This document shows positions 11,561-23,841 of a stretch of 64,000 bases of DNA, piece by piece. Under the pieces are notes generated by a model. That model ran no database searches. It worked only from the letters and a program-made list of their open reading frames with translations, and had not been told where the DNA came from. The stretch's first letter is position 1, and each line of letters starts with the position of its first letter. A program made the position numbers and the translations under genes. The stretch is from Leptolyngbya sp. Prado105. Lineage in GTDB: Bacteria > Cyanobacteriota > Cyanobacteriia > Leptolyngbyales > Leptolyngbyaceae. The stretch lies in the NCBI GenBank assembly GCA_025454375.1, contig JALOOO010000007.1, positions 908 to 64,907 of the forward strand, in the 5' to 3' direction.

Positions 11561-12445
11561 ATGAACTCTCGATCCAGGCGCTCTCACCGAGTCCACATCA
11601 ACATCGAAAATGGGCGGTTTCAAATCCAAGGCATGAATGCTTGGTACTCCTACTGGCGTGATCCCTACCATTTGGTTTTAACGCTACCTTGGGCTGGATT
11701 TGTTGGATTTATCTTCACGGTCTACCTGGGCATTAACCTGGGATTTGCGCTCCTCTACATGGTAGGAGGAGACACTGTTGCAAATGCAACCCCCGGAGCG
11801 TTTTGGGATTACTTCTTTTTCAGTGTGCAAACCTTTGCTTCTATTGGCTACGGAGCCATGTATCCCAAAACCTTCTACTCGAATACGCTCGTCACGATCG
11901 AAGCGATGGGCGGACTCTTAGCGATCGCCATTCTCGCCGGACTTGCCTTTGCTCGATTTTCTCGCTCAACTGCACGAGTCGTCTTCAGTGATGTCGCAAT
12001 CATCGCCCCGCATGAAGGTCTGCCAACTTTGAGCTTTCGTGCAGCAAACGAACGCCGCAACCTGATCTTAGAAGCCCAGATGCGCGTCTACTTGCTGCGC
12101 GATGAAATCACTTCAGAAGGACAATACATACGCCGAATTCACGATCTCGCACTCTTACGCAGTCGAACTCCTGGATTTGCCCTCTCCTGGCTCGTCCTGC
12201 ATCCAATCGATCAGTCTAGCCCACTCTATGGCATGACTGCTGAAGAAATGACCGAGACAAACTGCGTAATTCAAGTCAACCTGAGCGGAGTCGATGAAAC
12301 CGTGATCCAAGTGCTACACGATCGACATAGCTATGTGCCCCAAGACATTTTGTGGAATCATCGATTCATCAACATCATTCACAAAACCCCGGACGGACAT
12401 CGCTATATTGATTACAGGCACTTTCACGACTCGGAACCCATTTGA
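11561..12445 (+). CDS. Inward-rectifier-type potassium channel (KirBac-like)
   Basis: DPYHLVLTLPW slide helix, FFFSVQTFASIGYG pore, FARFSR, and cytoplasmic Kir domain. Confidence 0.92.
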   Translation: MNSRSRRSHRVHINIENGRFQIQGMNAWYSYWRDPYHLVLTLPWAGFVGFIFTVYLGINLGFALLYMVGGDTVANATPGAFWDYFFFSVQTFASIGYGAMYPKTFYSNTLVTIEAMGGLLAIAILAGLAFARFSRSTARVVFSDVAIIAPHEGLPTLSFRAANERRNLILEAQMRVYLLRDEITSEGQYIRRIHDLALLRSRTPGFALSWLVLHPIDQSSPLYGMTAEEMTETNCVIQVNLSGVDETVIQVLHDRHSYVPQDILWNHRFINIIHKTPDGHRYIDYRHFHDSEPI

Positions 12446-13738: not shown

Positions 13739-13771
13739 TTATATTTTATAAAGCTTATATTTTATAAAGCT
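13739..13771. repeat. 16/17-bp tandem duplication TTATATTTT(T)ATAAAGC just after the NYN stop
   Basis: Copies at 13739-13754 and 13755-13771; preceded by hairpin GGGGTGT-AGCGATGCA-ACACCCC (13714-13736). Confidence 0.8.
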
Positions 13772-13774
13772 GAA

Positions 13775-14392
13775 TTAGGGAGCAATGCGAACGCGATCGC
13801 TCATATCACTGCGCTGAATCAAAGGCTGAATCTTTGCAAGATCCACATAGCGATCGGCAATATTGACTAAACTATCGCTCGTCATCGACTGCAAACTTAC
13901 GACCTCAACCTGCACCCCCCGATAAGAAACGGTATTCACCACATAGGTTAAATCCCCGTCTCCACTCAGTAAAACCATCGTGTTGCAGTATTGGGACAAT
14001 TCCAGCATATCGACTGCAATCTCGACATCTAGATTGGCATGTTTTGAGCCATCTGAATGCTGAATCAATTCCTTTGTGACCACTCGATACCCGTGGCGAC
14101 GCATCCATAAGAGAAATCCCTGCTGTTTCTCATTATTCGGATCGACCCCAGTGTAAAAGTAAGCGCGTAAAAGCCTCCGTCCCCCTGCAAGATACTCCAG
14201 CAATTTTGAGTAATCAATCTCTAACCCAAGCTGCATCGCAGCATAGAACAAATTCGACCCATCAATAAAAATTCCAACACGATCGCTCTTTAGCAAATTT
14301 TTTGGATCAGACGGCGCGAATCCGTCGTCTGAATCGTAAACATCTTCGGACTTGCCTGAAGATGTCCGACGGTTACGGGGAACAAATTGCAT
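13775..14392 (-). CDS. LabA/NYN domain protein (paralogue A, acidic motifs intact)
   Basis: IFIDGSNL, KHANLDVEIAVD, LSGDGDL, GVQVEVV, ADRYVDL. Confidence 0.92.
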   Translation of the reverse strand: MQFVPRNRRTSSGKSEDVYDSDDGFAPSDPKNLLKSDRVGIFIDGSNLFYAAMQLGLEIDYSKLLEYLAGGRRLLRAYFYTGVDPNNEKQQGFLLWMRRHGYRVVTKELIQHSDGSKHANLDVEIAVDMLELSQYCNTMVLLSGDGDLTYVVNTVSYRGVQVEVVSLQSMTSDSLVNIADRYVDLAKIQPLIQRSDMSDRVRIAP

Positions 14393-14627: not shown

Positions 14628-14743
14628 TTTTTAATTCAAAAATAAACTAACTTTAGACGGTCAGGTTTTTTGCAAATTTCTTTATTTTTTAATTCAAAAA
14701 TAAACTAACTTTAGACGGTCAGGTTTTTTGCAAATTTCTTTAT
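14628..14743. repeat. Perfect 58-bp direct tandem duplication in the AT-rich intergenic region
   Basis: TTTTTAATTCAAAAATAAACTAACTTTAGACGGTCAGGTTTTTTGCAAATTTCTTTAT at 14628-14685 and 14686-14743; TATAAT at 14741-14746. Confidence 0.95.
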
Positions 14744-14999: not shown

Positions 15000-15262
15000 C
15001 AGATTCAGACATTACAAGTCATCAGGCAAATTTCTTAAGCTTTCTAACAAACGGTAGCGAAATTTGCGAGGAAAAGTAATGCTCTGAATACCAATACCAT
15101 TGGGTTTTCAAATCCGTTCCATAATAAAACCCAATCTTTCTATCCCCCAAGTGCCCCCGGCATTTTTTTGGGAAAACCCTTTTTATATATGAACAATTCC
15201 CCTGCATGTGAAACGATATCGCGTTTTGCATGGGGAGAAATTTATCCGAGCTTTCGCGATTC

Positions 15263-15889
15263 ATGATCCAGTTAGTACGAGAACCGGATGGTATAGAGCC
15301 ATCACTTCCCCAAGTCCCAGAGGATTCATCCGAACAACTCCCGCTACTCTTTCCCGAAGAATTCGATGAAACAGATGCCCCTGTACATTTGCATCGAGGT
15401 CGATTGATGATTTTTATCGATGGTGCAAATTTATTTTATGCAGCGTCACAGATGGGAGTTGAAATTGATTATGCAAAATTATTGAACTACCTCCAGCAGC
15501 ACAGTACTTTAATTTATGCGTTTTTCTATACGGGCGTTGACCCTGGAAATCTCCGTCAACATGCGTTTTTAACCTGGATGCGGCGCAATGGTTATCGAGT
15601 CGTGACGAAAGATGTGGTGTTAAATGCGTCGGGGTCAAAGCGGGTGAGCAGCATGAATGTTGAGATTGCGGTGGATATGATGCGATTCGCTCAAGATTGT
15701 GACACTGAGATTTTGATTAGCGGCGATGGCGATCTCGCTTATGCGGTGAATGCCGTTTCCTATTTAGGAACGAAGGTAGAAGTAATTTCTTTACGATCGA
15801 TGACCCATGAACGCTTAGTGACGATTGCGGATAATTTTATTGATATTCTTAGTATTCGCGATGAGATTCAGAAATCTCCAAGATCTTAG
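15263..15889 (+). CDS. LabA/NYN domain protein (paralogue B, central Asp replaced by Asn)
   Basis: IFIDGANL, SSMNVEIAVD, ISGDGDL; acidic N-terminal extension. Start may be 15230. Confidence 0.9.
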   Translation: MIQLVREPDGIEPSLPQVPEDSSEQLPLLFPEEFDETDAPVHLHRGRLMIFIDGANLFYAASQMGVEIDYAKLLNYLQQHSTLIYAFFYTGVDPGNLRQHAFLTWMRRNGYRVVTKDVVLNASGSKRVSSMNVEIAVDMMRFAQDCDTEILISGDGDLAYAVNAVSYLGTKVEVISLRSMTHERLVTIADNFIDILSIRDEIQKSPRS

Positions 15890-17441
15890 CAAGCTGCGAT
15901 CGTAACAGTTGAAGTTGATAGTGTTTTGCAGTTTCAGAGGCAATGGGTTTAATTTCAAATTGCAAAATCGGTCTTGCGGCTTGTTCGTACTGTGAGATCG
16001 CGGCTAGATTCAGTTGGCTAAAATGCGTGAAATAGCTTTGAATCCGATCTTGACAGGTTTCTAATAATTCCTGTGGATTGGTTTTTCTAAGCGGCTGATC
16101 ATCGAATAGAAATGAAGCACTTTCTCGCATGATCGACGCGATCGTTCGACCCAATAGCAAGTCTAATGGGGATGAGTCGTCAGGCTGCTGTACTTGAATC
16201 AAGTCTTGCTTCATCGTTGGAAAGGTAATGAGAAGCTGATTTGGGCGAGGCTGGTCGAAGAATTCGCAGGCTTGATGCACCCATTTGATCAAGGCTTGCT
16301 GATAGTTGATCGCGCTTCGCTTAAAGTCGCCTGTCTCCCAGATCTTAAAAGAATTTGTTTGCAGTGCGAGACTGGCATCGATTTGGTATTGAGACAGCAA
16401 TCGATCGAGACTGAGCCAATCGCGAAATTCTTCCAAGCTCGATTCAAAGCCTTTCTGAACCAGCCCTTGCGCCTTTTGTTGAATTTGAAACCGTTGCTTG
16501 AGGGTTTCTGTTTCAGACAGAATTTCTGATTCGAGATCCCTAATTTTTGGTTGAAGTGCGTGTTGAATTTGGCGTGCGATCGACTGAATTCGGGCAGTCT
16601 GAGTCACTCGTGAGGCTTGAAAATGCGCTGCGATCGTTTGCAATGCAGATTCAAAAATGGGCAGCCCCGATTCTTTTGCTGCCGAACTATCTCCTTTCAA
16701 ACGAGCGCGAAGTGCGGGAAGCGCATCAACGCGGTAGAGATTGCTCACTCCTGACGGTAAGTGAGATCGAAAGCTTTCTGCAACGAATCTGAGGCGGTGA
16801 TAGACCCGAAGTTGATCTTCAGATTCGAGCAGATTGAGAAAATTAACGACAAAAACGACCGTTGTAATCCCGCGATCGAGTAACCAATCTCGCAGTTGTT
16901 CTCGCTCTCCAAGCGTCATCAATTTCCGTCCATCTAGAACTTGAATGATCACATCCGCGCCGAGCAATTGATTTTTGACGAGCGCGTCTTGCGCGTCTCG
17001 ATCGTCGGTTCCTGGTAAATCAACGAATTCAACGCCCGTTTTGAGCAAAGGGTGCGGGCAAAAGACTTCAACCGATTTCACATCTTCGCGCATTCGTCGA
17101 TCGTGGTCTAAAATCGCGAATTGTTTGAGCAAATCAGTTCCAGGTTTGCGGAGGATGAGATCGTCTTGAAATTGAATCGCGGTTTCCAGCGTATCGCCGT
17201 ATTGAACTCGAATCGCTGCGCCCGTCGTCGGGATAATGTCGATCGGTAAGGCGCGTTCGCCAAGCATTGCATTTAATAATGTAGATTTGCCGTAATTGAA
17301 TGGGGCAAAAATCGCAACGCGCAACTGGTCAGAATCGCGTTGAGAGATGGATTCGAGGTCTTGCCGAATGGGGTGATTGGGAGGTAATTCGAGGGTGCCG
17401 ATTGCAGATTTGATGATTTCGATTTGTGATTGTATTGACAT
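15849..17441 (-). CDS. Dynamin-like GTPase, second and shorter member of the pair
   Basis: AIFAPFNYGKSTLLNAM, PTTG, DLPGTDD, VVNFLN, DALPALRAR; helical C-terminus. Start placed at MSIQSQIE (track start 17504). Confidence 0.88.
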   Translation of the reverse strand: MSIQSQIEIIKSAIGTLELPPNHPIRQDLESISQRDSDQLRVAIFAPFNYGKSTLLNAMLGERALPIDIIPTTGAAIRVQYGDTLETAIQFQDDLILRKPGTDLLKQFAILDHDRRMREDVKSVEVFCPHPLLKTGVEFVDLPGTDDRDAQDALVKNQLLGADVIIQVLDGRKLMTLGEREQLRDWLLDRGITTVVFVVNFLNLLESEDQLRVYHRLRFVAESFRSHLPSGVSNLYRVDALPALRARLKGDSSAAKESGLPIFESALQTIAAHFQASRVTQTARIQSIARQIQHALQPKIRDLESEILSETETLKQRFQIQQKAQGLVQKGFESSLEEFRDWLSLDRLLSQYQIDASLALQTNSFKIWETGDFKRSAINYQQALIKWVHQACEFFDQPRPNQLLITFPTMKQDLIQVQQPDDSSPLDLLLGRTIASIMRESASFLFDDQPLRKTNPQELLETCQDRIQSYFTHFSQLNLAAISQYEQAARPILQFEIKPIASETAKHYQLQLLRSQLAKILEISESHREY

Positions 17442-17463
17442 ATTTTTTACCGAAAACCCTGGG

Positions 17464-17487
17464 AGAGACGCGATGAATTGCGTCTCT
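17464..17487. repeat. REP/SDR-like palindrome AGAGACGC-GATGAATT-GCGTCTCT between the two dynamin genes
   Basis: 8-bp perfect arms; closely related to the element at 60719-60758. Confidence 0.7.
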
Positions 17488-17521
17488 GCGATCAACCATT
17501 GCACCCCTCGATCAACCCCGA

Positions 17522-19573
17522 TTATCCCAATAGCGATTGATAAATCGATTCCACTCGATCGTAGTGTTGGTCAAGATTTGATCGCCCCTTGATCAATCGA
17601 TCGACTTCGACATCGCGATCGATCTGTCTTGATTCTTTTTGTCGTACTAAATTATCCAATTCGGACTTTCTCGATCGAATATCATCATCAATCCGTTGAA
17701 TAATCCCGTTCTCATAGGTCTCAAAACATTCCTGAACCGAATTGTAAATGGGCTGCCATTGTTCTTGCGCAATACTTGGCAAATGCTGCATCAATTCCTT
17801 TTTCACCGCTTTAGCAAACCGTTGTCGCGCATCATCTGCTTGAAAGGCTCCGATCGCCAGACCTGCTAGCAACACCCCAAACGGACCCAAAATCGACCCA
17901 AACAAAAACGCAACGCCAACTGTTGCAACTAGATTCAGAGTCACCGTGCCAAAGTCAAATCCACTGATCGCAAGAGCCGCCCCTGCCAAATTTCCACGCG
18001 ACAAGGAGAACAATCCCATCGCCCACTTTGCCCAACTCGGTGCAGTCTCGTCTTTCTCACTAGATTTTAGCCGCGCCTGAATGCCCGTCATCTTCTCACT
18101 AATCTGTGCTGTCACCTCACTATAGGTAGCACCATGCTTTTCAGCACTGCAAGACAGTTCAGAAAATGCCGCTTTCAATTCTTGATCGGCGGTCAATGCC
18201 CAGGCCGCAAATTTATCACTCACATACTGCTGAAATCCCTGTTTTGATTTGGCATTAAAGCATTCTCGTTTCGACTCACTAAAGAAATCCAAAAACTGAA
18301 GTTCATTCGGCTGATATTTAAGAAAATCCTGCTCAAACGTCGCTTCCATGCCCATCAAGTAACTCCGAAACGAATCTGCGATCGCGCGAGCTTTCTTGTC
18401 TTCCAACTGCCGAATTTCACTGCGAAAGCGATCGCGAATCTCAGAAAGCTTCTGAAACTCAGGCTCAACGGATTCAATTCGTTGCTTCAATTCATTGAGA
18501 TCTTGATCTAGCAAGGGAATCCGCAGGTCGATCGCTTCTCGGACGCGACGTTGAGTTTGCCACACCAAAGCTCTCGCTTTTCTCAATTCAGAAACCGCTC
18601 GCTCCTGCGTCAAAAACACATTTAAGGCAGCTAAAAACTCAGGAAATCCTGTCCCATTTAACGCTGCATTTTGATCTTTGATGCGTCGTCGCAGTGCCTG
18701 GATCGCTGAAATCTCGAATACTCGTTCATCATAGAGATCGTGACCCTCAACTTGACAGTACTCCGCCAAGTTTGATCGAAAGACTCGTCTCAATTTGGAC
18801 TCTGCTTCTGCTAACTCCTCCGGATCATCTGGATCAATCAAACTCTCTTTCACTTGATCCCAGGCATTCACCAAAAAGAATACAGACAACCCGCGCTCTT
18901 TGATGTAATTCTCCAAATATCGACGTTCTGCAAGCGTGCAAGGCTGAGTAGATCGCATCACAAACAAAATCGCATGACAGTTGTGAATGTAGCTCAGCGA
19001 GAGTTCATTCCGCGCTTCCGTATCATTCAAACCAGGACTGTCAACGATTTCTACTCCTTTCTCAAGCAATGCCAAGGGATACTCAACAACCGCGTGACTG
19101 ATATCTGGAAAGGCTTGCTGATTATTTTGCTCCAGTGCTTTGGCTTCTTCAGGTGCGATCGTGTATTGCGTTTTGAAGGTTCTAAAATCAACCTCTAGCG
19201 GCGACTTCCCATCATTAAAATGAATCGTGACGCGCTTCTCAGCGCCATATTTCAGCACCGTCAACAGCGCTGTGCAAGGATTCACATCACTAGGCAGCAG
19301 ATTCTCACCTAGCAACGCATTGAGAAACGTACTTTTCCCACGTTTCATATCTCCCAGCACGAGGAGACGAAACACTCCCGCTTTCAGGGCTTCCCCAGCA
19401 TTCTTCAAATCCTCAATCTCGCACTCTAGCCCTAACTGACCGGAAGCTCCTTCACTCTCAGTCTCGACTTGATTTAAAGCGGTTGCGATCGCATGGATTT
19501 CATTTGCCATCGCAGCCCGACTCTGCACGACTCGATCGAGGTCGCTGAGAAAATTCATTGTTTCAATTCGCAT
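17522..19573 (-). CDS. Bacterial dynamin-like protein, BDLP1-type
   Basis: GDMKRGKST, SDVNPCT, DSPGLND, LVNAWD, PSWAKWAMGL, hydrophobic paddle LNLVATVGVAFLFGSILGPFG; resembles recalled Nostoc punctiforme BDLP1. Confidence 0.95.
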   Translation of the reverse strand: MRIETMNFLSDLDRVVQSRAAMANEIHAIATALNQVETESEGASGQLGLECEIEDLKNAGEALKAGVFRLLVLGDMKRGKSTFLNALLGENLLPSDVNPCTALLTVLKYGAEKRVTIHFNDGKSPLEVDFRTFKTQYTIAPEEAKALEQNNQQAFPDISHAVVEYPLALLEKGVEIVDSPGLNDTEARNELSLSYIHNCHAILFVMRSTQPCTLAERRYLENYIKERGLSVFFLVNAWDQVKESLIDPDDPEELAEAESKLRRVFRSNLAEYCQVEGHDLYDERVFEISAIQALRRRIKDQNAALNGTGFPEFLAALNVFLTQERAVSELRKARALVWQTQRRVREAIDLRIPLLDQDLNELKQRIESVEPEFQKLSEIRDRFRSEIRQLEDKKARAIADSFRSYLMGMEATFEQDFLKYQPNELQFLDFFSESKRECFNAKSKQGFQQYVSDKFAAWALTADQELKAAFSELSCSAEKHGATYSEVTAQISEKMTGIQARLKSSEKDETAPSWAKWAMGLFSLSRGNLAGAALAISGFDFGTVTLNLVATVGVAFLFGSILGPFGVLLAGLAIGAFQADDARQRFAKAVKKELMQHLPSIAQEQWQPIYNSVQECFETYENGIIQRIDDDIRSRKSELDNLVRQKESRQIDRDVEVDRLIKGRSNLDQHYDRVESIYQSLLG

Positions 19574-19890
19574 TAGAACTTCCGCCCATCAATAAAAACT
19601 TTGTAGAGAGCAAACGCGATCGCAACGACAATCACGAGAGTCGCCAATGCACTGGCAATCCGAACTGCCGCAATCACACAAACTACAATGCCAACAAAGC
19701 TGGCAATCTTGATTGCGTTACGTTTCCAACGTTGAAATCGTGTTTCGGGAGACTGATGTTTGACAGTTTGATGAAATGGGGGCGAGTTCACTTCCGCTTC
19801 AAGTTCGCGCAGTCGCATAGCGAGTTCGCGTTCTTCAAGCTCCTTTTCGCGCTGGCGCAACTCTTCTTCTCTTGAATTTGAAGAACTCAT
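19573..19890 (-). CDS. Small membrane protein (DUF3040-like): N-terminal coiled coil plus TM hairpin
   Basis: REEELRQREKELEERE followed by two hydrophobic segments; stop overlaps the BDLP start (TAATG). Confidence 0.8.
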   Translation of the reverse strand: MSSSNSREEELRQREKELEERELAMRLRELEAEVNSPPFHQTVKHQSPETRFQRWKRNAIKIASFVGIVVCVIAAVRIASALATLVIVVAIAFALYKVFIDGRKF

Positions 19891-19942
19891 GATCGAGATC
19901 GACTAAAGTTTGCTGTTCTAGCATTCCCACAATCCAAGAGCT

Positions 19943-20674
19943 TTAAATTGATCGACGAATCTCCGATCGCAATTTTTCTAATTCTGGATCAACAGGCGGA
20001 CTCGCAGGCAACGAACCCTGATTCATTTGCCCTTTCATCGCAGCGAGTTCGGCATCAATCTCATCCCCTTGACCCAACGACTCAAACCGCTTTTCTAATG
20101 TATCGTTGCTCAATTCTGCCATCGCTTCCGATCGCGCTTCGAGTTGCAGCACCTTATCTTCCATACGCTCAAACGCATTCATTGCGCTGCCTGTTCTGAC
20201 TCGATTTAGCATTTCATTCAATTGCTCAGACGCTTTTGCCGATCGCGCCCGTGCAATATACATATCTTTTTTCGTTTTCGCCTCAGAAATCTTGCCCTCA
20301 AGCTTCATCATGTTCTGCTTTAGTTGAGTGACGATCGCGCCTTGTTGACTTAACTGCGCTTCCATGGCACTCGCCGTTTCTACATAACTTTTTCGCCGCG
20401 CTAGGGCTTCGCGTGCCAAATTCTCATCGCCTTTTTGTAGCGCTAACTGCGCCCGACGATACCATTCCTCTGAATTGGTACGGGCTTGGGACGCTTGACG
20501 TTCGGTGCGTTTTTGAGTCGCGATCGCTTGCGCGACGGCTTGGCGAAGCTGAATCAAATCATTCTGCATATCCAAAACGGTCTGCTCCAGAATTTTCTCT
20601 GGATCTTCCATTTTGCCAACCAGGTCATTTAGATTTGCACGAATCACGCGCCAAATTCGGTCAAACAGTCCCAT
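19943..20674 (-). CDS. PspA/IM30 (Vipp1-like, ESCRT-III superfamily) protein
   Basis: MGLFDRIWRVIRANLN...EDPEKILEQ...KISEAKTKK...AFERMEDKV; short C-terminal helix VDPELEKLR; GGAGAGG SD before ATG 20674. Confidence 0.95.
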   Translation of the reverse strand: MGLFDRIWRVIRANLNDLVGKMEDPEKILEQTVLDMQNDLIQLRQAVAQAIATQKRTERQASQARTNSEEWYRRAQLALQKGDENLAREALARRKSYVETASAMEAQLSQQGAIVTQLKQNMMKLEGKISEAKTKKDMYIARARSAKASEQLNEMLNRVRTGSAMNAFERMEDKVLQLEARSEAMAELSNDTLEKRFESLGQGDEIDAELAAMKGQMNQGSLPASPPVDPELEKLRSEIRRSI

Positions 20675-20760: not shown

Positions 20761-21885
20761 TTAGGGTTTGACTTCTGCCGCAATTCCCTGGCTTTTCAAT
20801 TCCTGAGCTTTGCGTTGTGCCTCAGCTTGATTGGTAAAAGCTGCAAGCTGAATCTTGCCATCGGAACGCACAAACGCATCGGGTATGACTCGACGGGCTG
20901 CACTCAAAGATTGATCTCCTGTGAATGGCACCTCAACTTTATATTGATAGGCACTATTGTTGGGTGGAGTCGCTGTCGGGGATTTGGCAACAGTAATAGG
21001 CGGCAATAGAATCGAAGACCCTGCCATCGGCATCGGCTGTGGGGAAGGTTGTGGAGAAGCAACAACGGTCGGCGCAGGAGAGGCATTCGGTGTGGGTGCA
21101 ACTAAAGCCGCAGCCGCAGCTTGAGTCGGAGTCGGACTGGGAGAAGCGGCAATTGTGGGAATGGGTGCGGGTCTAGTTTGCAGTGCTGAAAGCGTGTCTA
21201 ATCCTAAATCTGAAAATTCATCGCGATCGAGTCGAGGCGAAGTTGGGGTCAATCCAGTGGGAGATTCGCTTGCAGGCGAGTCACTCGAAGAATCTGCGAC
21301 TTCTGATGTGCCCGAATTTTGCCAGAGTCCACTGACGATCGTCGGATTCATAATTACATAGCCCAACATTGCGCTCGATACGAGCAATGTCAGCATCGAG
21401 CCAATTCCCAGCGGGGTGGATAAACTCTGCAAAAAACCGCGTTCAACTTCGACTTTTGCTTCTTCTCGCTTCAAACTTTTCAGCAAATGCTCAGAAGATT
21501 CTAAATAGTCATCCGGTGGCGTTGAAGCTTCGGCAACAGCATAAGGATCGCCTGCGGTTTCAGAGGTATAGGGAACCATTGCGCTTTCGTCAAAGTCCGG
21601 GATGTGAATTTCCCCGATCGCAGCGGCTCCAAGATCAAACGAAATAGCTTTGGGCGGTTCAGTCACGCGTGCAGCTTCGACCGTTGCAGTTCCGCCAAAT
21701 GACATCAAATCGAGGGGCTTTTTTGCAGGTTGCTTAGGACGCAATACGATCGGGGCAACGCTCAATCCTGCACGCTGCCGTCGATAGCGGGTCAATTCAT
21801 CTTCGAGACGCAGATCCAAACAGCCTAAAGCCTCTTGCAATCTAGCATTAGGGGCACTTTTTGAAGTAGCTCGATCGCGACGCAT
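20761..21885 (-). CDS. Membrane protein with Pro-rich linker and C-terminal SPOR-like domain
   Basis: ALGCLDLRLEDELTRYRR, one TM helix, C-terminal KIQLAAFTNQAEAQRKAQELKSQGI; AGGAG before ATG 21885. Confidence 0.7.
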   Translation of the reverse strand: MRRDRATSKSAPNARLQEALGCLDLRLEDELTRYRRQRAGLSVAPIVLRPKQPAKKPLDLMSFGGTATVEAARVTEPPKAISFDLGAAAIGEIHIPDFDESAMVPYTSETAGDPYAVAEASTPPDDYLESSEHLLKSLKREEAKVEVERGFLQSLSTPLGIGSMLTLLVSSAMLGYVIMNPTIVSGLWQNSGTSEVADSSSDSPASESPTGLTPTSPRLDRDEFSDLGLDTLSALQTRPAPIPTIAASPSPTPTQAAAAALVAPTPNASPAPTVVASPQPSPQPMPMAGSSILLPPITVAKSPTATPPNNSAYQYKVEVPFTGDQSLSAARRVIPDAFVRSDGKIQLAAFTNQAEAQRKAQELKSQGIAAEVKP

Positions 21886-22047
21886 AAGGGGAAAACTCCT
21901 CGATTGAAAGCCGTAAAATTCGGAAACACTCGGAACAGCAAAATCTGAGATTTCAGTGTAGTTCAGAGTTTTCAATTCGACGCAAAAATCTTGGCAACGC
22001 AGGTCACAATAGATCCAGAGCCAGATCCAAAGCCCTCGGTGAGTCGT

Positions 22048-22587
22048 ATGTCGTTTCAAGAACTGCAATCCATTTTGGGTGCGATCGAACCGCACTATCA
22101 TTCACCCGAACGCCAACAACTTCAGCAGATTCTTGAGCATTGGGTCGATCTAGCGGGGACAGATCTCGCAACCGCAACCCAGCCGATCTCGCTGCAACGC
22201 AACACATTAGAAGTGGCAACAGCTAGCCCAGTTTGGACGCAAACCCTCGTGTTCAAACGGTTTGGTATTTTGAAGAAAATTCGCGATCGCTTTGCGATCG
22301 ATCTCAGTGACATTCGCTGTTCTACTGTGCAGTGGAGAACCGCACCGAACCCCACTGCCCTCGAAGGCGACCTTTGGCAAAATCATCCCAGTCAAGTTCC
22401 AGCGACGACTCAACCACGCGAAACACAACTTGCCCTCTTTCACGACAGCCGTACTGCATTTGAGCGCTGGTCCTCTACGATTCAAAGCCGCTCCCAACAC
22501 TTACCCCTCTGCCCAAAATGTAATAGCCCTACCCCACCCGGCGAATTAGAACGCTGGTCAGTTTGTGCAATTTGTGAATCAAGCTGA
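22048..22587 (+). CDS. DUF721/DciA-family protein with C-terminal Zn ribbon
   Basis: ILEHWVDLAG...LEVATASPVWTQTL...IRC; CPKC...CAIC. Confidence 0.8.
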   Translation: MSFQELQSILGAIEPHYHSPERQQLQQILEHWVDLAGTDLATATQPISLQRNTLEVATASPVWTQTLVFKRFGILKKIRDRFAIDLSDIRCSTVQWRTAPNPTALEGDLWQNHPSQVPATTQPRETQLALFHDSRTAFERWSSTIQSRSQHLPLCPKCNSPTPPGELERWSVCAICESS

Positions 22588-23225: not shown

Positions 23226-23410
23226 ATCTTTGAACCGGAATGGGGATTTTCAGCAATTCCCGTCTGGCATCGTGAGTCTTCGTTTGCACTCTCGACTCAC
23301 CCTGAAGGCATCACCTTCACTCAGCCTGTAGAACCGATGATCTCTGATGCTGAAGTGAAGATTTAGAGCGCACTAAAAAAACGCACCCCGATTCGGGGTG
23401 CGTTTTTTTA
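23226..23410 (+). ncRNA. Structured small RNA candidate, identity unresolved
   Basis: No ORF; stems GGGGATT/AATTCCC (23242-23261), GTGAGTC/GACTCAC (23272-23300), CTTCACTCAGC/GCTGAAGTGAAG (23315-23360), then a terminator with a U7 tract on the plus strand. Ends are approximate. Confidence 0.55.
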
Positions 23411-23413
23411 GTG
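23371..23413. terminator. Bidirectional Rho-independent terminator
   Basis: CACTAAAAAAACGCACCCCG-ATT-CGGGGTGCGTTTTTTTAGTG: perfect 20-bp arms with A7 and T7 tracts. Confidence 0.92.
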
Positions 23414-23427
23414 TCAATTGCGTCAAA

Positions 23428-23841
23428 TTAGGGAGCCTGGGTCGGTTGAGCTTGAGTCGGTTGTATCAGTGGCTCAACATCTCCTAGAACAACGGTACGC
23501 GAATCCGCTGGGATTCGATTTGCTTGCTCTTGGACGACCGTAGAAGTTTGATGAGGATCAAATAGATTTGCAAATTCTGCTTTTAAGCGATCGACCCGTA
23601 CATTCGCCGTTTTGACTTCAGATTGGATCTCTTGAAGCTTGGCTTGTTGGCTGACACTATAAGGAATAAGCTGTGTCAAAGCCGCGATCGCAGCGCTAGA
23701 AATTAAAGCATTCACACCCAGTTTCACGATCGCTTCGGCAGCTAGCACACGAGAGCGCACTTGGCGACGTGCAGGTTGATGGGCGCGAGAGCGGCGTGAT
23801 CTTGGCGATTCAGGGGGTTGTGGTAGAGGAAGTGCGTTCAT
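23428..23841 (-). CDS. Slr1601-family putative cell-division (FtsB/L-like) protein
   Basis: Basic N-terminus, TM helix, coiled coil QAKLQEIQSEVK...VDRLKAEF, FDP...QEQ motif. Confidence 0.7.
   Translation of the reverse strand: MNALPLPQPPESPRSRRSRAHQPARRQVRSRVLAAEAIVKLGVNALISSAAIAALTQLIPYSVSQQAKLQEIQSEVKTANVRVDRLKAEFANLFDPHQTSTVVQEQANRIPADSRTVVLGDVEPLIQPTQAQPTQAP

What the first reader, a model, noticed from the sequence alone, without database searches (positions are those of the whole stretch)
15849..20674. PspA/Vipp1-like (ESCRT-III), small membrane protein and two dynamins in one probable operon
Seen: four co-oriented genes with gaps of 52 nt, a TAATG overlap and 80 nt. The SPOR-like gene lies 86 nt further upstream. 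The PspA homologue has a Vipp1-like terminal helix on a short linker. Established: PspA/Vipp1 are ESCRT-III-family membrane remodellers; BDLP1 tubulates membranes; tandem bacterial dynamins work as heterocomplexes in membrane repair, and some limit phage spread (DynA, Eleos). Inference: a combined ESCRT-III plus dynamin membrane-repair or fusion machine in which the 105-aa coiled-coil/TM protein is the membrane adaptor (a PspB/C analogue). That adaptor role is, to my knowledge, untested.
Basis: partly seen in the sequence, partly recalled or inferred. Interest (0 to 1): 0.75.

Follow-up and report, generated by a model that had tools for sequence, protein, structure and literature searches.

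The report
Dynamin module parked behind cyanobacterial pspA
The four genes are real, but only the small membrane protein and the two dynamins form a unit conserved across cyanobacteria; the PspA gene sits next to them only in this one shallow lineage, so a combined ESCRT-III plus dynamin machine is not supported.

Summary
On the minus strand lie a PspA/IM30 gene (20674..19943), a 105-aa membrane protein (19890..19573), a BDLP1 orthologue (19573..17522) and a second dynamin (17441..15849). The gaps are 52 nt, a TAATG overlap and 80 nt, and a SPOR-like gene ends 86 nt upstream.

In 80 BDLP1 loci from other cyanobacterial species, the small-protein gene lies directly upstream of BDLP1 in 57 of 73 testable loci. 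The second dynamin lies downstream in 50 of 72. None of the 80 has a PspA-family gene within the flanks. PspA orthologues at 79-89% identity each have a different downstream neighbour. Only a 95%-identical relative shares this arrangement.

By tree and synteny the PspA gene is the non-Vipp1 paralogue of the widespread dciA/SPOR-like/pspA/vipp1 block. It does carry a Vipp1-like C-terminal helix. Here the dynamin module occupies the place of vipp1.

The new element is the small protein. It belongs to an unannotated family of about 190 clusters that is tightly coupled to BDLP1, so it is more likely a dynamin partner than a PspB/C analogue. Co-transcription could not be tested.

The parts
20761..22101 (-). 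SPOR-like membrane protein. It is context only, but it is the conserved upstream neighbour of pspA. The longest ORF is 446 aa; a public gene call gives 374 aa, starting near 21885.
   Evidence: SPOR Pfam hit at the cut-off (21.4 bits against 21). One TM segment at residues 231-251. A homologue sits directly upstream of the pspA orthologue in every relative examined except L086/L087, and in many pspA-vipp1 tandem loci.
19943..20674 (-). PspA/IM30-family (ESCRT-III-like) protein, 243 aa. It is the cyanobacterial PspA paralogue, not canonical Vipp1, and carries a short-linker Vipp1-like C-terminal helix (VDPELEKLRSEIRRSI).
   Evidence: PF04012 at 209 bits. PDB scores: Nostoc Vipp1 243 bits, Synechocystis Vipp1 about 230 bits, Synechocystis PspA 146 bits. 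An NJ tree groups it with the upstream paralogue of pspA-vipp1 tandems. Synteny is dciA(-)/SPOR-like/pspA. The C-terminal motif is conserved in its clade.
19891..19942 (-). 52-nt pspA-to-small-gene spacer, with no terminator-like or promoter-like site.
   Evidence: Sequence; scan. The relative L082 has 70 nt here because of an 18-nt insertion and is otherwise similar.
19573..19890 (-). 105-aa small membrane protein, a member of an unannotated family associated with BDLP1. It has a charged N-terminal helix, a conserved T-x-K-H-Q-x-P-E linker motif, and a roughly 40-residue hydrophobic helix or hairpin with a conserved central Arg.
   Evidence: AF2 model with pLDDT 79, helices 5-34 and 51-101. 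Hydropathy. Family alignments. 191 clusters in 1.84 billion representatives. No curated family. Directly upstream of BDLP1 in 57 of 73 loci.
17522..19573 (-). BDLP1 orthologue, 683 aa. This is the membrane-binding bacterial dynamin-like protein of the 'Tandem B' type, with a hydrophobic paddle at residues 541-579. Its ATG shares one base with the stop codon of the small gene.
   Evidence: PF00350 plus PF21808. Matches 2j68/2w6d at E 8e-271 over residues 3-682. G1 is GDMKRGKS and G3 is DSPG; paddle located. Overlap read from the sequence.
15849..17441 (-). Second dynamin-like protein, 530 aa, in the position of the 'Tandem A' partner. It has a G domain plus a helical region and no hydrophobic paddle. 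Its 3' end overlaps the convergent NYN gene by 41 nt.
   Evidence: PF00350 at E 2e-23. About 27% identical to BDLP1. Orthologues at 42-58% identity lie downstream of BDLP1 in 50 of 72 loci. No hydrophobic segment; G1 is APFNYGKS and G3 is DLPG.

Best explanation
The functional unit is a three-gene cyanobacterial dynamin module: small membrane protein, BDLP1, and a second paddle-less dynamin. In this lineage a local rearrangement has placed it directly behind the pspA paralogue, in the slot that vipp1 occupies in many other cyanobacteria.

Proposed working of the module (inferred):
- The small protein sits in the membrane through its long hydrophobic helix or hairpin and exposes a charged helix to the cytoplasm.
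- It is made in fixed proportion with BDLP1 through translational coupling.
- It marks or prepares the membrane where BDLP1 inserts its paddle and polymerises.
- The paddle-less DLP2 pairs with BDLP1 as in other heterotypic bacterial dynamin pairs.

Because no terminator separates pspA from the module and the spacer is only 52 nt, the module is probably read through from the SPOR-like/pspA promoter here. It would then be co-expressed with PspA. That is a regulatory accident of this lineage, not evidence of a physical ESCRT-III/dynamin complex.

Shown: gene identities, spacing, conservation patterns, paralogue assignment.
Inferred: topology, the small-protein/BDLP1 interaction, the BDLP1-DLP2 heteromer, read-through transcription.
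For: Conservation of the core:
- A small-family gene lies on the same strand directly upstream of the first BDLP1 copy in 57 of 73 testable loci. These span Nostocales, Oscillatoriales, Leptolyngbyales, Chamaesiphon, Pleurocapsales and Thermosynechococcaceae. The median gap is about 24 nt.
- DLP2 lies downstream in 50 of 72 loci.
- No other neighbour recurs in more than about 21 loci.

The small family is compact and stand-alone:
- 191 clusters, 72-164 aa, full-length matches.
- Conserved motifs.

Non-conservation of the PspA link:
- 0 of 80 BDLP1 loci contain a PspA-family gene.
- 0 of 80 vipp1 loci contain the small gene or a dynamin.
- PspA orthologues at 79-89% identity have six different downstream neighbours, yet keep the SPOR-like upstream gene.
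- Only the 95% relative shares the cluster.

Slot replacement:
- dciA(-)/SPOR-like/pspA/vipp1 is seen in L088/L089 and in about 25-30 of the 80 vipp1 loci.
- The tree puts the window gene with the upstream paralogue.

Anatomy and transcription signals:
- BDLP1 has a paddle and DLP2 has none.
- The literature already describes tandem cyanobacterial BDLPs and heterotypic pairing (PMC5827413, PMC6104087, bioRxiv 10.1101/2025.05.27.656310).
- There is no terminator-like site in the junctions.
Against: - No transcript data exist for this organism, so read-through from pspA is untested.
- No interaction test between the small protein and BDLP1 was possible, because the tool folds single chains only.
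- 16 of 73 BDLP1 loci lack the small gene, including the closest BDLP1 relative in the genome collection (L002, 72% identity, 526 nt of upstream sequence).
- One family member (P0124, L176) has no dynamin within 7 kb. The partnership is therefore frequent but not obligatory.
- The arrangement is stable between two relatives at 95% PspA identity and 89% BDLP1 identity. Selection for the pspA link in this genus cannot be excluded.
Confidence: 0.62

Rival explanations
1. PspA, the small protein and the two dynamins form one integrated membrane-repair or fusion machine, in which the 105-aa protein bridges PspA to the dynamins as a PspB/C or YdjG/H-type adaptor.
For: - Four co-oriented genes with gaps of 52 nt, an overlap, and 80 nt, and no terminator-like sites.
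- The arrangement is kept in a second organism at 95% PspA identity and 89% BDLP1 identity.
- Membrane adaptors encoded beside pspA are known: B. subtilis pspA-ydjGHI (PMC8581546).
- PspA and dynamins are both implicated in membrane repair (PMC8581546, PMC9950537).
Against: - The link is absent from all 80 other BDLP1 loci, from all 80 vipp1 loci, and from six closer PspA orthologue contexts.
- The small protein co-varies with BDLP1, not with PspA.
- It matches no PspB or PspC model.
- Two large surveys of PSP genomic contexts contain no occurrence of the word 'dynamin' (PMC9239133 and PMC11237479, as counted).
Confidence: 0.1
2. The dynamin pair is an anti-phage defence system of the Eleos (LeoABC) or DynA type, and the neighbouring PspA and NYN nucleases are part of a defence island.
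For: - Weak PADLOC matches of BDLP1 to LeoA (E 4e-16) and LeoBC (E 8e-13), and of DLP2 to LeoA (E 5e-10).
- The two flanking NYN genes match the PADLOC NYN model.
- B. subtilis DynA delays phage lysis (PMC9950537).
Against: - The Leo matches are low-scoring (57 bits and below) and fit general dynamin homology. By contrast, BDLP1 scores 903 bits to Nostoc BDLP.
- The module is a near-universal chromosomal feature of filamentous cyanobacteria with stable vertical synteny, unlike patchy defence islands.
- NYN genes are not conserved neighbours; only 1 of 80 loci has one.
Confidence: 0.07
3. This PspA-family gene is the organism's only Vipp1/IM30. The cluster would then couple thylakoid biogenesis (Vipp1) with BDLP-driven thylakoid fusion.
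For: - It has a Vipp1-like C-terminal helix.
- It scores higher to Nostoc and Synechocystis Vipp1 structures than to Synechocystis PspA.
- No second PspA-family gene lies in the 64-kb window.
Against: - The tree and synteny place it with the non-Vipp1 paralogue.
- Relatives with named genomes carry both paralogues: Phormidesmis priestleyi, Pantanalinema rosaneae, Leptothermofonsia sp. ETS-13, Leptolyngbya sp. BL-A-14 and Myxacorys chilensis.
- True Vipp1 proteins are 255-280 aa with a long linker.
Confidence: 0.08

Closest known systems
Nostoc punctiforme BDLP1 and the tandem cyanobacterial BDLP operon ('Tandem B' followed by 'Tandem A'; Low and Lowe 2006; Jilly et al. 2018, PMC5827413)
   Same: - The window's BDLP1 aligns end to end with the solved BDLP (E 8e-271).
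- It has the same Dynamin_N plus PF21808 architecture and a paddle.
- A divergent second dynamin follows it, as described for the tandem clades.
   Different: - The papers read here describe only the dynamin genes. They do not mention the small gene upstream, which is present in most loci.
- In this lineage the module lies directly behind pspA, which is not seen in Nostoc-type loci.
Campylobacter jejuni DLP1/DLP2 heterotypic pair (PMC6104087) and Bacillus subtilis DynA (a fused pair)
   Same: - Two different dynamin-like proteins are encoded side by side.
- The expectation is that they act as a heteromer that tethers or fuses membranes.
   Different: - Sequence similarity is only remote (E 1e-9 to 1e-11).
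- The C. jejuni operon carries an HcpA-like beta-lactamase rather than a small membrane protein.
- No heteromer was tested here.
Mycobacterial iniBAC operon
   Same: A non-dynamin first gene is followed by two dynamin-like genes (IniA, IniC) in a stress-induced operon, as summarised in bioRxiv 10.1101/2025.05.27.656310.
   Different: - Whether IniB resembles the 105-aa protein was not tested here.
- The match to IniA is weak (E 4e-6).
Psp systems with membrane adaptors: E. coli pspABC and B. subtilis pspA-ydjGHI (PMC8581546)
   Same: A pspA gene is followed by a small membrane-protein gene. In those systems the membrane proteins recruit PspA.
   Different: - The small protein here matches no PspB or PspC model; similarity to YdjG/YdjH was not tested.
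- It is conserved with BDLP1 rather than with PspA.
- pspA orthologues in close relatives lack it.
Cyanobacterial pspA-vipp1 tandem (Vipp1/IM30; PMC8281802, PMC13051332)
   Same: - The window gene is the orthologue of the upstream (pspA) member.
- It keeps the dciA(-)/SPOR-like context.
   Different: - vipp1 is not downstream here.
- Unlike most upstream paralogues, this clade carries a Vipp1-like C-terminal helix on a short linker.

Membership tests
PspA/IM30 (bacterial ESCRT-III-like) family | Full-length match to PF04012 above the curated cut-off, and homology to solved PspA/Vipp1 structures | tested here: met
   209.3 bits against a cut-off of 33.9, covering residues 2-217. Matches 6zvr at E 1.6e-71 and 7abk at E 1e-41.
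Canonical Vipp1 (IM30) clade | C-terminal extension ending in an amphipathic helix | tested here: met
   VDPELEKLRSEIRRSI corresponds to VVDAELDSLRKQLDQL of Nostoc Vipp1, but on a much shorter linker (243 aa against 258-267 aa). Amphipathicity and membrane binding were not tested.
Canonical Vipp1 (IM30) clade | Phylogenetic placement with Vipp1 proteins | tested here: not met
   A midpoint-rooted NJ tree on 215 core columns separates all 32 Vipp1 proteins, including Nostoc 6zvr, from a clade that holds the window protein, its orthologues and the upstream paralogues. This is a distance tree without support values.
Canonical Vipp1 (IM30) clade | Position as the downstream member of the pspA-vipp1 tandem | tested here: not met
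   The window gene lies next to the SPOR-like gene, which is the position of the upstream paralogue.
BDLP1-type bacterial dynamin-like protein | Dynamin_N G domain with G1/G3 motifs, the PF21808 helical domain, and a hydrophobic paddle near the trunk tip | tested here: met
   PF00350 at E 1e-33 and PF21808 at E 3e-152. Matches 2j68 at E 8e-271 over residues 3-682. GDMKRGKS, DSPG and a paddle at 541-579. GTPase activity and tubulation cannot be tested here.
Tandem partner dynamin ('Tandem A' of Jilly et al. 2018) | A divergent Dynamin_N protein encoded directly downstream of the BDLP1-type gene | tested here: met
   PF00350 at E 2e-23. About 27% identical to BDLP1. Orthologues lie downstream of BDLP1 in 50 of 72 loci. 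It was not compared with the published Tandem A sequences themselves.
Heterotypic dynamin pair (Cj-DLP1/2-like complex) | Physical heteromer of the two dynamins | not testable with these tools
   Only single-chain structure prediction is offered. This is inferred from gene pairing and the literature (PMC6104087).
PspB / PspC adaptors of the Psp system | Match to the PspB or PspC family models, and co-occurrence with pspA | tested here: not met
   No such Pfam or NCBIfam hit for the 105-aa protein or for 15 relatives. The family co-occurs with BDLP1, not with pspA.
Eleos (LeoABC) anti-phage system | Strong matches to LeoA and LeoBC models in the Leo gene arrangement | tested here: inconclusive
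   Only weak hits: LeoA 57 bits, LeoBC 46 bits and LeoB 36 bits for BDLP1; 37 and 30 bits for DLP2. PADLOC gives no cut-offs in this output. The scores fit generic dynamin homology.
Single operon (pspA-small-BDLP1-DLP2) | One transcript spanning the junctions | not testable with these tools
   No RNA run holds the window sequence. The only support is the absence of terminator-like sites and the short gaps.

The most novel reading that the evidence does not exclude
The 105-aa protein defines an undescribed, cyanobacteria-wide family of small membrane proteins. It would be the missing third subunit (anchor, nucleator or regulator) of the BDLP1-DLP2 dynamin machine. This could explain why purified BDLP1 alone shows weak assembly-stimulated GTPase activity and no fission. 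In this lineage the module would additionally have been captured into the pspA transcription unit, giving a natural experiment in which ESCRT-III-like and dynamin remodellers are co-expressed.
Probability: 0.45. Interest if true: 0.6.

Novelty: new variant of a known kind. Interest (0 to 1): 0.4.

Why it matters
BDLP1 of Nostoc is the structural reference for bacterial dynamins and mitofusin-like fusion proteins, yet its cellular role and partners remain open. A small membrane protein encoded directly upstream in most cyanobacterial BDLP1 loci, sometimes with overlapping stop and start codons, is an obvious candidate partner. The papers read here do not mention it. Adding it, together with DLP2, to reconstitution and localisation experiments is a cheap and direct test.

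The PspA adjacency is of narrower interest. It shows how a membrane-remodelling module can be placed under a stress gene's promoter by rearrangement. It should not be cited as evidence for an ancient or general ESCRT-III/dynamin partnership.

Tried and rejected
- **RNA evidence.** No RNA run holds the window, and only one DNA run, from a wetland metagenome, holds it. Metatranscriptome contigs laid on a Dolichospermum locus (L070) gave sparse fragments inside the small gene and BDLP1. None spans a junction, so they say nothing about co-transcription.
- **Locating the organism's own vipp1.**
  - A metagenome scan with a relative's Vipp1 returned 80 loci, none from the window's metagenome.
- **PspB/C, DUF3040 or another curated family for the small protein.** Only sub-threshold, inconsistent hits were found, so this was rejected.
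- **Defence-system reading.** There are only weak Leo hits, so this was kept as a low-probability rival.
- **Structured RNAs or repeats in the junctions.** None were found.
- **Promoter scan.** No promoter-like site lies in the pspA-small spacer. A sigma-70 consensus scan has limited value for cyanobacteria.
- **Small ORF as a chance ORF or leader.** This was rejected because of family conservation.


Full report
**1. Observation**

The region holds four co-oriented minus-strand genes:
- a PspA/IM30-family gene at 20674..19943 (243 aa);
- a 105-aa ORF at 19890..19573;
- a 683-aa dynamin-like gene at 19573..17522;
- a 530-aa dynamin-like gene at 17441..15849.

The sequence gives the stated spacings:
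- 86 nt between the SPOR-like gene and pspA;
- 52 nt between pspA and the small gene;
- a TAATG stop/start overlap between the small gene and BDLP1;
- 80 nt between BDLP1 and the second dynamin.

Start codon of the second dynamin:
- In-frame GTG and TTG codons lie further upstream.
- The gene call in the 95% relative (531 aa) and tblastn alignments that begin at residue 1 favour the ATG at 17441.

Pfam confirms the identities:
- PspA_IM30 at 209 bits;
- Dynamin_N plus the bacterial dynamin helical domain PF21808 (E 3e-152) for the first dynamin;
- Dynamin_N (E 2e-23) for the second;
- a borderline SPOR hit for the upstream gene.

No terminator-like site falls in any junction. No Rfam family or repeat lies there either. 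The window is a contig from a wetland metagenome. Frequent GCGATCGC motifs and the gene content mark it as cyanobacterial.

**2. What the genes are**

*First dynamin.* It is a clear orthologue of Nostoc punctiforme BDLP1. It aligns over residues 3-682 with PDB 2j68/2w6d at E 8e-271. It has G1 and G3 motifs and a hydrophobic paddle at residues 541-579.

*Second dynamin.* It is about 27% identical to the first. It has a G domain but no hydrophobic segment. It matches the position of the 'Tandem A' partner that Jilly et al. describe next to the BDLP1-type 'Tandem B' gene (PMC5827413).

*Small protein.*
- The AlphaFold2 model has mean pLDDT 79. It shows a charged helix (5-34), a linker, and a long helix (51-101). 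The last ~40 residues of that long helix are hydrophobic and carry a conserved central Arg.
- This fits a membrane hairpin or a long membrane helix with a cytoplasmic N-terminal helix. The topology is inferred.
- It matches no curated Pfam or NCBIfam family. The only hits are sub-threshold and inconsistent, such as DUF3040 and DUF4349.

**3. Which PspA-family protein is it?**

- It scores higher to Nostoc Vipp1 (243 bits) than to Synechocystis PspA (146 bits). It also ends in VDPELEKLRSEIRRSI, which corresponds to the C-terminal helix of Vipp1 (VVDAELDSLRKQLDQL).
- However, a relative with a 79%-identical orthologue carries dciA(-)/SPOR-like/this gene/a second PspA_IM30 gene. The second gene is the true Vipp1: 314 bits to Nostoc Vipp1 over its full length, with a long linker.
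- The same tandem, often with dciA and the SPOR-like gene, recurs in about 25-30 of 80 metagenomic vipp1 loci.
- A distance tree splits all Vipp1 proteins from a clade that contains the upstream paralogues and the window protein.
- The window gene is therefore the cyanobacterial PspA paralogue.
- Most upstream paralogues elsewhere lack the terminal helix. Its presence in this clade is a small curiosity.
- Named relatives hold both paralogues: Phormidesmis priestleyi, Pantanalinema rosaneae, Leptothermofonsia sp. ETS-13, Leptolyngbya sp. BL-A-14 and Myxacorys chilensis.
- No second family member lies in the window. The organism's own vipp1 could not be found.

**4. Is the cluster conserved?**

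A scan of one genome per species with BDLP1 returned 80 loci from many cyanobacterial orders.

- *Small gene.* tblastn and an iterated HMM show a small-family gene directly upstream of the first BDLP1 copy, on the same strand, in 57 of 73 loci with enough upstream sequence. The median gap is about 24 nt.
- *DLP2.* Orthologues lie downstream in 50 of 72 loci.
- *BDLP1 copies.* 13 loci have two or three BDLP1 copies.
- *Other neighbours.* No other neighbour recurs in more than about 21 loci.
- *PspA.* Not one of the 80 loci has a PspA-family gene in the flanks. In turn, none of the 80 vipp1 loci has the small gene or a dynamin within 4 kb.

The closest orthologues of the window's PspA tell the same story.

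| PspA identity | Downstream neighbour |
|---|---|
| 95% | same cluster as the window |
| 89% | ornithine carbamoyltransferase |
| 86% | convergent glycoside hydrolase |
| 85% | unknown 126-aa gene |
| 84% | acyltransferase |
| 81% | methyltransferase |
| 79% | vipp1 |

The SPOR-like upstream gene stays in all of these relatives but one. The site downstream of pspA is thus a rearrangement hot spot, and the dynamin module landed there recently.

**5. The small family**

- A profile of 16 members found 191 clusters at 50% identity among 1.84 billion representatives. All are 72-164 aa and match over their full length.
- Every source that names a member calls it hypothetical, apart from one truncated JGI label beginning 'Flp pilus ass'.
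- The association with BDLP1 is strong but not absolute. 16 of 73 loci lack the small gene, including the closest BDLP1 relative in the genome collection, L002.
- Two loci have a different 176-aa multi-TM ORF in its place.
- One member has no dynamin within 7 kb.

**6. Literature**

- Tandem or multiple BDLP genes in cyanobacteria and heterotypic pairing of bacterial dynamins are established (PMC5827413; PMC6104087; bioRxiv 10.1101/2025.05.27.656310).
- The passages read in these papers, found by searching terms such as 'operon', 'upstream' and 'small', do not mention the small upstream gene.
- Two surveys of PSP genomic contexts contain no occurrence of 'dynamin'.
- A review of cyanobacterial membrane dynamics treats PspA/Vipp1 and BDLPs separately.
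- Membrane adaptors encoded beside pspA are known in B. subtilis (PMC8581546).

**7. Explanation**

The best-supported reading is a three-gene dynamin module (small membrane protein, BDLP1, paddle-less DLP2) that in this lineage lies behind pspA in the place of vipp1. It is probably transcribed by read-through.

The small protein is most likely a membrane partner of BDLP1. Its role could be as an anchor, a nucleator or a regulator; which of these is not known. The TAATG overlap suggests coupled translation.

A physical PspA-dynamin machine is not excluded in this genus, but comparative evidence gives it no support. A defence role has only weak, generic support.

**8. Verdict**

The ESCRT-III plus dynamin coupling is a lineage-specific juxtaposition of two known systems. 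The part worth following up is the conserved, unannotated small partner of BDLP1. Interest is moderate.

Noticed in passing
window 19943-20020 (C-terminus of the PspA paralogue); P0001-P0120; L113, L124 against L127-L174: The non-Vipp1 paralogue of this clade (Leptolyngbyaceae, Phormidesmis, Pantanalinema and relatives) ends in a conserved (V/I)DPELEKLRSxIR helix like that of Vipp1. Most upstream paralogues of pspA-vipp1 tandems elsewhere end without it. The C-terminal extension is therefore not exclusive to Vipp1. It may be ancestral, or it may have been copied from the neighbouring vipp1.
   Followed up: partly
L084, L086, L088, L090, L092, L093, compared with window 19891-19942: The site just downstream of pspA is a rearrangement hot spot. 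Six orthologues at 79-89% identity have six different downstream genes, while the SPOR-like upstream gene is kept in all but one (L086).
   Followed up: yes
L017:4815-5345 and L032:9389-9919: Where the small family is missing, these two loci have a homologous 176-aa multi-TM ORF directly upstream of BDLP1. It may be an alternative membrane partner.
   Followed up: no
L176:7001-7345 (P0124): This small-family member (55% identical over 70% of the query) has no dynamin gene within 7 kb. It lies between a radical-SAM gene and an ABC ATPase gene.
   Followed up: no
window 13775-14392 (-) and 15230-15889 (+): Two paralogous NYN (LabA-like) nuclease-domain genes, 55% identical, flank an AT-rich spacer. 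The second converges on the DLP2 gene and overlaps its 3' end by 41 nt (15849-15889).
   Followed up: partly
window 14628-14743: A perfect tandem duplication of a 58-nt AT-rich unit lies in the spacer between the two NYN genes. A perfect 16-nt tandem duplication lies at 13739-13770.
   Followed up: no
window 23371-23413: A perfect 21-nt inverted repeat has an A-run on one side and a T-run on the other. It looks like a bidirectional intrinsic terminator upstream of the 137-aa ORF at 23428-23841.
   Followed up: no
window 21991-22101: The longest SPOR-like ORF (446 aa) overlaps the divergent DciA gene by 111 nt. A public gene call starts it later (374 aa, near 21885), so the true start is probably downstream.
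   Followed up: partly
L018, L020-L022, L024, L027, L030, L038, L041, L069, L074, L076, L080: In 13 species BDLP1 itself is duplicated in tandem (three copies in L041). The small gene, where present, lies upstream of the first copy only.
   Followed up: partly
L070:9450-9500 and 12079-12110: Short stretches of a Dolichospermum locus attract many unrelated metatranscriptome contigs at high depth. They are probably short dispersed cyanobacterial repeats rather than signal from this locus.
   Followed up: no
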